A DNA stretch of 997 nucleotides from NCBI RefSeq assembly GCF_003334385.1, contig NZ_QOWN01000136.1, one strand, 5' to 3'. Of this stretch, positions 818 to 848 are shown one piece after another. The notes below the pieces were generated by a model. That model was not told the origin of the DNA. It made no database searches and was given only the letters and a program-made list of their open reading frames with translations. The DNA comes from Escherichia coli (GTDB lineage Bacteria > Pseudomonadota > Gammaproteobacteria > Enterobacterales > Enterobacteriaceae). The position numbers and the translations under genes are program-made. Numbering within the stretch: position 1 is the first letter of the stretch; each line of letters starts with the position of its first letter.

Positions 818-827
818 TTGCATGAGT

Positions 828-845
828 TGCCCATCGATATGGGCA
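828..845. terminator. Short hairpin (7-bp stem, 4-nt loop) in the 31-bp gap between convergent bor and Rz; possible weak bidirectional terminator or transcript-stabilising element
   Basis: tgcccat (828..834) pairs with atgggca (839..845) around loop cgat, and contains the palindrome ATCGAT. There is no clear U-tract on either strand, so intrinsic-terminator function is doubtful. Confidence 0.2.
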
Positions 846-848
846 GCT

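What the first reader, a model, noticed from the sequence alone, without database searches (positions are those of the whole stretch)
818..848. Hairpin between convergent bor and Rz 3' ends
bor (+) and Rz (-) converge with only 31 bp between their stop codons, and the gap holds a 7-bp-stem hairpin (828..845) centred on an ATCGAT palindrome. Because bor is transcribed antisense to the late operon, late read-through toward cos would run antisense across bor. The hairpin could act as a weak bidirectional terminator or an RNA 3'-end stabiliser, but there is no U-tract.
Basis: seen in the sequence. Interest (0 to 1): 0.25.

Follow-up and report, generated by a model that had tools for sequence, protein, structure and literature searches.

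The report
Leaky terminator hairpin after bor
The hairpin between the phage genes bor and Rz is real and belongs to the bor gene cassette as a worn-down version of its transcription terminator, and published RNA-end maps of a near-identical E. coli K-12 copy show no RNA ends at it, so it is an ordinary feature.

Summary

The hairpin is longer than described: 11 bp (824-834/839-849), loop CGAU, one U.G pair. It folds at -18.5 kcal/mol on the bor strand (1 of 5000 shuffles as stable) and -15.0 on the late strand, where the wobble becomes an A.C mismatch.

It has no Rfam match and is not a dispersed repeat. It travels with bor:
- Rz genes without bor lack it.
- bor next to a different lysis cassette keeps it.
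- In a rare sister allele (12 of 5426 E. coli genomes) the same stem is followed by UUUUAUUU, a canonical bor-sense intrinsic terminator.

In this window the tail overlaps the Rz stop and last codon and is U-poor. Terminator scores are negative on both strands.

Two published 3'-end maps of the K-12 DLP12 copy (179/181 identical, but with a stem mismatch) list no RNA end at the hairpin on either strand. borD RNA ends 156-162 nt downstream, after a second hairpin (943-971) antisense to Rz/Rz1. A Rho-dependent region lies beyond that.

Verdict: a degenerate, leaky bor terminator stem-loop, not a bidirectional terminator. Low interest.

The parts
524..817 (+). bor (Bor/Iss lipoprotein, 97 aa), the gene whose 3' end the hairpin follows
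   Evidence: ORF. Pfam PF06291 for all homologues. Annotated Bor in phages 21, 434, lambda and 933W.
818..823 (+). 6-nt spacer between the bor stop codon and the base of the stem
   Evidence: Sequence. Varies between alleles: TTGCAT, TATCAT, TTACAT.
824..849 (+). Hairpin HP1. Arms 824-834 and 839-849 (11 bp, U827.G846 wobble), loop CGAU 835-838. The conserved core is 8 bp, 827-834/839-846.
   Evidence: stability. (conservation of the core; pair 827:846 seen as U.G, U-A and C-G).
850..858 (+). U-poor tail UAUCUGCAC, overlapping the Rz stop codon and last codons. This is the position of the U-tract (UUUUAUUU) in the L231 allele.
849..997 (-). 3' part of Rz (i-spanin), stop TAG at 851-849. The gene runs off the right edge of the window.
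908..997 (-). 3' part of Rz1 (o-spanin), embedded in Rz in another frame
   Evidence: Translation ...PPPDWQTPLNGIISPSERG*. Offset agrees with the annotations.
943..971 (+). Second hairpin HP2 (-16.5 kcal/mol), antisense within Rz/Rz1. In K-12 DLP12 the borD RNA 3' ends map just after it, at window 973-978.
   Evidence: published 3' ends at 578444 and 578439-441. (coordinate map, 179/181 identical, no indels). (fold).
876..900 (+). Weak terminator-like site (5-bp stem CTGGG/CCCAG plus TTGTTTTTGC), antisense within Rz. No mapped 3' end in K-12.
   Evidence: scan; d = -24; no 5785xx ends.

Best explanation
The hairpin is the 3' stem-loop of the bor accessory cassette (a 'moron': own promoter, gene, terminator). 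It acts in the bor-sense (+) RNA.

It is the homologue of a canonical Rho-independent terminator found in a sister bor allele. In this common allele the would-be U-tract overlaps the stop codon and last codon of the convergent Rz gene and reads CUCUAUCU rather than UUUUAUUU. RNA polymerase transcribing bor in a lysogen therefore mostly reads through it.

The transcript continues about 125 nt or more, antisense, into Rz/Rz1. Transcription is stopped further on by Rho, and the RNA is trimmed back to a second hairpin (943-971). HP1 is left as a leaky terminator or pause site, and at most a second barrier to 3'-to-5' exonucleases.

On the late (-) strand it has no terminator role. The Q-modified polymerase has to pass it to reach cos and the head genes, and a ribosome stopping at the Rz stop codon sits on the 5' arm of the - strand hairpin.

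Shown here: the structure and its statistical significance; membership of the bor cassette; the canonical-terminator homologue; the absence of 3' ends in K-12.
Inferred: leaky termination, the exonuclease-barrier role, and the reason for loss of the U-tract.
For: 1. Stability is far beyond chance and highest on the + strand.
2. It travels with bor, not with Rz.
- Rz genes without bor (L209, L210, L211) have unrelated sequence after their stop codons.
- In Stx2_14040 the Rz stop is followed directly by the region that lies left of window ~345, so bor plus promoter plus hairpin is an insertion.
- bor next to a GH108-endolysin cassette keeps the hairpin, and homology ends at window 859.
3. In allele L231-L234 the same stem (GCUGCCCAU CAAU AUGGGCAGU) is followed by UUUAUUUACA. 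The scan calls it as a + strand terminator, with discriminant +14.7 against -21.9 for the window and +29.3 for the annotated phage 21 tR'.
4. Conservation of the core.
- Between alleles L213 and L231 the 16 core stem bases differ at 2 sites, which form a compensatory U-A to C-G exchange at pair 827:846.
- 11 of 26 flanking and loop bases differ (Fisher one-sided p = 0.043).
- The window carries the U.G intermediate, which pairs only in + strand RNA.
5. 94.4% of cells pair on the + strand across 13 haplotypes. By my own recount of the pair table on the opposite strand, about 87% pair there.
6. K-12 DLP12 borD: 3' ends at 578444 (Term-seq) and 578439-441 (TRS, 'distant primary', 162-nt 3' UTR). 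Read density in the 3' UTR is not below that in the CDS. A bicyclomycin-sensitive Rho region lies at 578204.
7. Stable stem-loops without U-tracts are the known 3' ends of Rho-terminated RNAs (Dar and Sorek 2018, PMC6061677).
Against: - The K-12 copy with 3'-end data has a G843U mismatch (-11.3 kcal/mol). Read-through is therefore not demonstrated for the intact allele.
- Within the common clade, stem positions are as polymorphic as third codon positions: 6 of 21 segregating, pi 0.037, against 0.278/0.056 for bor third positions and 0.327/0.030 for Rz third positions.
- Uncompensated disruptions occur in K-12, EC27, L238 and the ColV iss plasmids.
- Covariation over all 13 haplotypes is not above the shuffle controls.
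- L213 and L231 are close relatives in bor, so the comparisons are few.
- The canonical-terminator allele is rare (12 of 5426 genomes). It may be derived rather than ancestral.
- L213 has lost Rz yet keeps the U-poor tail.
Confidence: 0.5

Rival explanations
1. Neutral relic. The stem-loop is a leftover of an ancestral bor terminator (or a by-product of recombination at the cassette edge) with no present function in this allele.
For: - Stem polymorphism is at the third-codon-position rate.
- Natural uncompensated disruptions occur in K-12 DLP12, EC27, L238 and the ColV iss plasmids, where iss is still an intact gene.
- There are no 3' ends at it in K-12.
- Covariation is not significant overall.
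Against: - The 8-bp core is intact in three alleles whose loops, spacers and tails differ by about 40%. The only core change is compensatory.
- Most of the haplotypes sampled keep a stability reached by only 1 in 5000 shuffles.
Confidence: 0.2
2. Late-strand RNA element. On the 26-kb late transcript the hairpin just after Rz protects the S-R-Rz-Rz1 segment from 3'-to-5' exonucleases after downstream cleavage.
For: - The - strand also folds better than chance (-15.0, z -4.2).
- In lambda and 933W the repeat is perfect and the - strand form is -19.3 kcal/mol.
Against: - The commonest allele has an A.C mismatch on this strand.
- Most single changes that keep pairing do so only on the + strand: 13 G.U cells on + against 2 on -, by my own recount of the pair table.
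- The hairpin is absent after Rz in phages without bor.
- The Rz stop codon lies inside the 5' arm, so terminating ribosomes would melt it (inference from geometry).
- No 3'-end data exist for induced cells.
Confidence: 0.1
3. True bidirectional terminator for the convergent bor and late transcripts, possibly helped by head-on polymerase collisions.
For: - It is a near-symmetric hairpin exactly between convergent genes.
- Bidirectional terminators between convergent genes, and termination by collision, are described in E. coli (titles listed).
Against: - No U-tract on either side, and discriminants of -22 and -53.
- No 3' ends on either strand in K-12.
- Curated phage 21 and 434 records that annotate other terminators mark nothing here.
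- Termination of late transcription upstream of cos and the head genes would be harmful, and Q-modified polymerase ignores terminators (established lambda biology).
Confidence: 0.05
4. DNA-level feature. The palindrome marks, or promotes, the recombination joint at the edge of the bor cassette, or is a protein-binding site.
For: - Mosaic joints fall within about 10-20 bp of it: window 859/860 in L213, and 855-868 in Rz-only phages.
- L213 and L231 differ by 4% in bor but 31% in the 42 nt after the stop codon.
- The L213 loop (CTCG) resembles the - strand loop ATCG, as if the spacer had flipped.
- An exact 11-nt inverted repeat (360-370/846-856) sits at both edges of the insertion.
Against: - The G.U asymmetry and the U-A/U.G/C-G series argue for RNA pairing on one strand.
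- No protein is known or indicated.
- A second unrelated 11-nt inverted repeat occurs in the window, so the flanking repeat may be chance.
Confidence: 0.07

Closest known systems
Rho-independent (intrinsic) terminators, such as the phage 21 tR' annotated in OL657228
   Same: G+C-rich stem with a 4-nt loop a few bases after a stop codon. A homologous allele (L231-L234) carries the full hairpin plus U-tract and is called as a terminator.
   Different: In this window the tail has 3-4 U in 8 and the discriminant is negative. No RNA 3' ends map to it in the K-12 copy.
Moron cassettes of lambdoid phages (promoter, gene and terminator inserted between older genes and expressed from the prophage; Cumby et al. 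2012, PMC3594210)
   Same: bor with its upstream region and the hairpin is present or absent as a block relative to related phages. It is transcribed against the late operon, and bor is expressed in lysogens (PMC7067206 introduction). The stem-loop sits at the cassette's 3' edge and moves with bor.
   Different: The terminator part is degenerate here and overlaps the neighbouring gene's stop codon. The cassette edge lies a few codons inside Rz.
Protective 3' stem-loops of Rho-terminated transcripts (Dar and Sorek 2018, PMC6061677)
   Same: A stable stem-loop not followed by U-rich sequence, with Rho-dependent termination documented downstream in K-12.
   Different: The steady-state 3' end in K-12 lies after the second hairpin HP2 (943-971), not after this one. 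The sequence just downstream is T-rich rather than clearly C-rich and G-poor.
Bidirectional terminators between convergent genes (SEnd-seq work of Ju et al. 2019; recalled from memory, title seen)
   Same: A single hairpin shared by two convergent transcription units.
   Different: No A-tract/U-tract pair flanks the stem. No 3' ends on either strand in K-12. The late-strand polymerase is antiterminated.

Membership tests
Intrinsic (Rho-independent) terminator | Stable G+C-rich stem-loop (5-14 bp, loop 3-8) | tested here: met
   11 bp, loop 4. -18.5 kcal/mol on + and -15.0 on -.
Intrinsic (Rho-independent) terminator | U-tract immediately 3' of the stem | tested here: not met
   The scan does not call it on either strand. 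Tail score nT is 1.69 (+) and 0.73 (-), against 4.11 for L231 and 5.44 for phage 21 tR'. Discriminant is -21.9 and -53.4 (formula recalled from d'Aubenton-Carafa 1990, used only for relative comparison).
Intrinsic (Rho-independent) terminator | RNA 3' ends map at the tail in vivo | tested here: not met
   K-12 DLP12 copy, which carries the G843U variant: no ends at 5785xx or 5786xx on either strand in Term-seq. TRS classes borD as 'distant primary', meaning no terminus within 100 nt of the stop. Not tested for the intact allele.
Bidirectional terminator | U-tract on both strands (A-tract upstream, U-tract downstream) and 3' ends on both strands | tested here: not met
Protective stem-loop of a Rho-terminated transcript | Stable stem-loop without a U-rich tail | tested here: met
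Protective stem-loop of a Rho-terminated transcript | Steady-state 3' end immediately downstream of the stem | tested here: not met
   In K-12 the end lies after HP2 (window 973-978), not after HP1.
Protective stem-loop of a Rho-terminated transcript | Rho-dependent termination downstream | tested here: met
   A bicyclomycin-sensitive region at 578204(-), antisense in rzpD, in Adams et al. 2021 supplementary file 2. K-12 copy only.
Moron cassette | Present or absent as a block between conserved flanks in related phages | tested here: met
   Stx2_14040 joins the Rz stop directly to the ylcI-like region. Rz-only hits stop at window 855-868.
Moron cassette | Own terminator at the 3' edge that moves with the gene | tested here: met
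   The hairpin is kept next to a different lysis cassette and is a canonical terminator in L231. In this window it is degenerate.
Moron cassette | Own promoter, expression from the repressed prophage | not tested
   The simple sigma-70 scan finds no promoter in the window. Expression in lysogens is taken from the literature. K-12 borD RNA is detected.
Dispersed palindromic repeat (REP-like) | Many copies in unrelated contexts | tested here: not met
   All 120 exact matches in IMG/VR lie in the same bor context.
Any curated RNA family (Rfam 15) | Covariance-model match | tested here: not met
   No match over 818-850, even at E up to 10.

The most novel reading that the evidence does not exclude
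The U-poor hairpin may be kept leaky on purpose. In lysogens, bor transcription would then run about 160 nt or more antisense over the 3' ends of Rz and Rz1, and that long bor 3' UTR would silence leaky spanin or lysis expression. After induction the reverse would hold: late transcription and RNA duplex formation would shut bor off. The hairpin would act as a one-way valve or collision point that sets the balance between the two convergent units.
Probability: 0.08. Interest if true: 0.45.

Novelty: new member of a known kind. Interest (0 to 1): 0.15.

Why it matters
It matters little beyond annotation. The work shows three things.
- The bor/iss serum-resistance cassette is present in most E. 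coli genomes (4519 of 5426). It carries a terminator-like stem-loop that is unmarked in the phage 21, 434 and lambda records I inspected.
- In the common allele that stem-loop has lost its U-tract to the overlapping Rz stop codon.
- At least in K-12, bor RNA therefore extends antisense into the spanin genes.

This is a tidy example of how a terminator decays when it is squeezed against a convergent gene. It also gives a testable reason for a long antisense 3' UTR, but it does not change how lambda biology is understood.

Tried and rejected
- Rfam scan at a permissive threshold: nothing at the hairpin.
- Dispersed-repeat idea: rejected, because all 120 exact copies are in the bor context.
- Curated annotation (lambda NC_001416 and J02459, phage 21, phage 434): no feature in the gap.
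- Literature searches for a described bor terminator found nothing relevant.
- Papers or data not held in the library:
  - Barondess and Beckwith 1995.
  - The paper looked up under PMC3718152, which I recalled as the lambda ribosome-profiling study.
  - The paper looked up under PMC4424060, which I recalled as Casjens and Hendrix 2015.
  - The paper looked up under PMC6814526, which I recalled as the SEnd-seq study.
  As a result, no 3'-end data could be obtained for an intact-stem allele.
- 'borD' plus 'Term-seq' text search mostly hit the word 'border'.
- Protein homologue search: the best 120 of 5896 hits were all at least 86% identical, many from short noisy contigs, so it gave few divergent contexts. 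Two were followed.
- Formal covariation count over 13 haplotypes: not above the controls.
- The + strand terminator-like site at 876-900 was considered as the real bor terminator. It was rejected because the stem is weak (-4.3 kcal/mol, d = -24) and no 3' end maps there in K-12.
- A target-site-duplication model for the repeat ATGGGCAG (356-363 and 839-846) was considered. It was dropped because lambda lacks the left copy by my recollection of its sequence (not checked with a tool), and cassette homology extends to 859.
- A first flank-identity script had an offset error. Only its printed flanks were used.

Full report
WHAT IS THERE

The window is a lambdoid prophage segment read opposite to lambda's map. 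From left to right:
- A joined cos site. The - strand of window 1-46 is identical to lambda bases 1-46, and the virion right end begins at 47.
- A ylcI/YnfO-like small ORF (201-356, +).
- bor (524-817, +).
- A 31-bp gap (818-848).
- The 3' ends of Rz (stop 851-849, -) and of the embedded Rz1 (908-997, -).

THE HAIRPIN

The stem is 11 bp, not 7: 824-834 pairs with 839-849, with loop CGAU. Pair 827:846 is a U.G wobble on the bor (+) strand and an A.C mismatch on the late (-) strand.

For 820-850 the energies are -18.5 kcal/mol on + (z -4.9) and -15.0 on - (z -4.2). One of 5000 (+) and 6 of 5000 (-) dinucleotide shuffles fold as well. It is the strongest local fold in the window.

The ATCGAT palindrome is off-centre by one base. 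There is no U-tract: the simple scan does not call the hairpin on either strand. There is no Rfam match.

WHOSE ELEMENT IS IT?

The 19-mer core occurs at least 120 times in IMG/VR, always between bor and the same downstream bases, so it is not a dispersed repeat.

Phage hits to window 740-940 fall into two classes. Either bor, hairpin and Rz are all present at 95% identity or more, or only Rz is present, at about 80%, with homology ending at window 855-868.
- Three Rz-only phages have unrelated sequence after the Rz stop.
- In Stx2_14040 the Rz stop is joined directly to the region that lies left of window ~345. bor, its upstream region and the hairpin are therefore an inserted block, which is the 'moron' layout (PMC3594210).

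The converse also holds. A bor allele 12% diverged in DNA sits next to a GH108 endolysin cassette instead of lambda-type Rz, and it keeps the hairpin (AGUUGCCCAU CUCG AUGGGCAACU). Homology to the window ends at 859. The hairpin belongs to bor.

A SISTER ALLELE IS A CANONICAL TERMINATOR

Loci L231-L234 match 12 of 5426 complete E. coli genomes at full length. After the bor stop they read GCUGCCCAU CAAU AUGGGCAGU UUUAUUUACA. The scan calls this a + strand terminator.

I applied a classical discriminant (formula recalled from d'Aubenton-Carafa 1990, used only for ranking):

| Element | d |
|---|---|
| L231, + strand | +14.7 |
| phage 21 tR' (annotated) | +29.3 |
| L239 allele (CUUUAUCU tail), + | -4.5 |
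| window, + | -21.9 |
| window, - | -53.4 |
| K-12 variant, + | -48.7 |

The window tail CUCUAUCUGC differs from UUUUAUUUAC only by C-for-U and G-for-A at 847, 849, 853 and 855. These bases are the complement of the Rz stop codon and last codon (AGA TAG). The U-tract position is thus occupied by the end of the convergent gene.

IS THE STEM SELECTED?

The evidence is mixed.

Within the common clade (36 haplotypes), stem positions are as polymorphic as third codon positions. Uncompensated breaks exist: G843U in K-12, EC27 and L048; C844G plus a 9-nt deletion in ColV iss plasmids; G842A in L238. A formal pair count over 13 haplotypes gives 94.4% paired cells but no covariation above the controls.

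Between the two diverged alleles, L213 and L231, the pattern is different. Only 2 of 16 core stem bases differ, and they form a compensatory U-A to C-G exchange at 827:846. By contrast, 11 of 26 loop, spacer and tail bases differ (one-sided Fisher p = 0.043).

The window carries the U.G intermediate. By my recount of the pair table, G.U cells number 13 on + against 2 on -. This points weakly to pairing in bor-sense RNA.

DIRECT 3'-END EVIDENCE

The E. coli K-12 DLP12 copy (borD/rzpD) is 179/181 identical to window 817-997, with no indels. The only difference in the hairpin is G843U.
- Term-seq (Adams et al. 2021, PMC7815308) lists one 3' end in the region, 578444(-), which is window 973. It also lists a bicyclomycin-sensitive Rho region at 578204(-). 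Nothing is listed at 5785xx or 5786xx on either strand.
- An independent method (TRS, PMC10687069) puts the borD terminus at 578439-441. It classes this as 'distant primary', which by their definition means no terminus within 100 nt of the stop codon. The 3' UTR is 162 nt, and its read density is not below that of the CDS.

These ends lie 2-7 nt after a second hairpin, HP2 (943-971, -16.5 kcal/mol). HP2 has no U-tract either. This fits the pattern described by Dar and Sorek (PMC6061677), in which Rho-terminated RNAs are trimmed back to a stable stem-loop.

In K-12, then, bor RNA runs through HP1 and about 125 nt antisense into Rz/Rz1. The caveat is that the K-12 stem is weakened to -11.3 kcal/mol. 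I could not obtain 3'-end data for an intact allele.

THE LATE STRAND

Late transcripts must cross the hairpin, bor, the ylcI-like ORF and cos to reach the terminase and head genes. The same layout is seen in L298. The late polymerase is Q-antiterminated (established lambda biology; see also PMC10695390).

On this strand the fold is weaker in the common allele and its tail is AUGCAAUUAUUG. The Rz stop codon lies inside the 5' arm, so a terminating ribosome would cover it (inference). Curated phage 21 and 434 records, which annotate other terminators and RBSs, mark nothing here.

CONCLUSION

The hairpin is best read as the bor cassette's terminator stem-loop in a U-poor, leaky state. It is unidirectional in origin (bor sense). 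It is passed by late transcription, and at least in K-12 it is not the RNA 3' end.

'Bidirectional' is not supported.

This is an unannotated but ordinary member of a known kind, and interest is low.

The most novel reading left open is that the leakiness is functional, with the bor 3' UTR acting as an antisense RNA to the spanin genes. I give this about 8%.

Noticed in passing
window 1-106: The window spans a joined cos site. The - strand of 1-46 is identical to lambda's left end (cohesive end GGGCGGCGACCT is the reverse complement of 35-46). The virion right end starts at 47, and cosQ is annotated about 24-30 nt further in phage 434. bor is only about 480 bp from cos here, against about 1750 bp in lambda.
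   Followed up: yes
window 943-978 (+): A second hairpin, HP2 (-16.5 kcal/mol), antisense inside Rz/Rz1. Two published data sets place the K-12 borD RNA 3' end just after it. The bor 3' UTR (about 156-162 nt) is therefore antisense to the 3' ends of both spanin genes.
   Followed up: partly
L231 1003-1034 (also L232-L234, L298): A rare bor allele (12 of 5426 complete E. coli genomes) in which the homologous stem is followed by UUUUAUUU, a canonical intrinsic terminator. It lies next to a GH108 endolysin and holin cassette rather than lambda-type Rz.
   Followed up: yes
window 360-370 and 846-856: An exact 11-nt inverted repeat, GCAGATAGAGC / GCTCTATCTGC, at the two edges of the bor insertion. 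The right copy includes the Rz stop codon. ATGGGCAG is also directly repeated at 356-363 and 839-846. This could be recombination microhomology or chance: another unrelated 11-nt inverted repeat (453-463/744-754) exists in the window.
   Followed up: partly
window 201-356 (+): A small ORF (MRDTPANHKRGKNPV...AQLKG), co-oriented with bor and antisense to late transcription. The corresponding ORF is annotated DUF3950 or YlcI/YnfO family in phage 434 and NC_049954. In Stx2_14040 it directly abuts the Rz stop.
   Followed up: partly
window 876-900 (+): A terminator-like site (CTGGGTTCCTTCCAG plus TTGTTTTTGC), antisense within Rz. The stem is weak (-4.3 kcal/mol) and no 3' end maps there in K-12.
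   Followed up: yes
L213 1003-1026 compared with window 825-848: The loop of this allele (CTCG) is one change from the - strand loop of the window (ATCG) but three changes from its + strand loop (CGAT), as if the 4-nt spacer of the palindrome had flipped. L213 and L231 differ by 4% in bor but 31% in the 42 nt after the stop codon, which suggests a recombination joint at the bor stop.
   Followed up: no
window 385-396 and 485-496: Direct repeat CACAGGATTCTG / CATAGGATTCTG, exactly 100 nt apart, upstream of bor. The simple scan found no sigma-70 consensus promoter in the window. It may be regulatory; from memory, borD is reported as PhoP-regulated.
   Followed up: no
protein hits P0010-P0120; H143: Many near-identical but noisy Bor variants come from ENA contigs of about 3.5 kb. 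Bor is also labelled as from plants, Staphylococcus and a 'Campylobacter phage'. These are most likely lambda control DNA or contamination in public assemblies.
   Followed up: no
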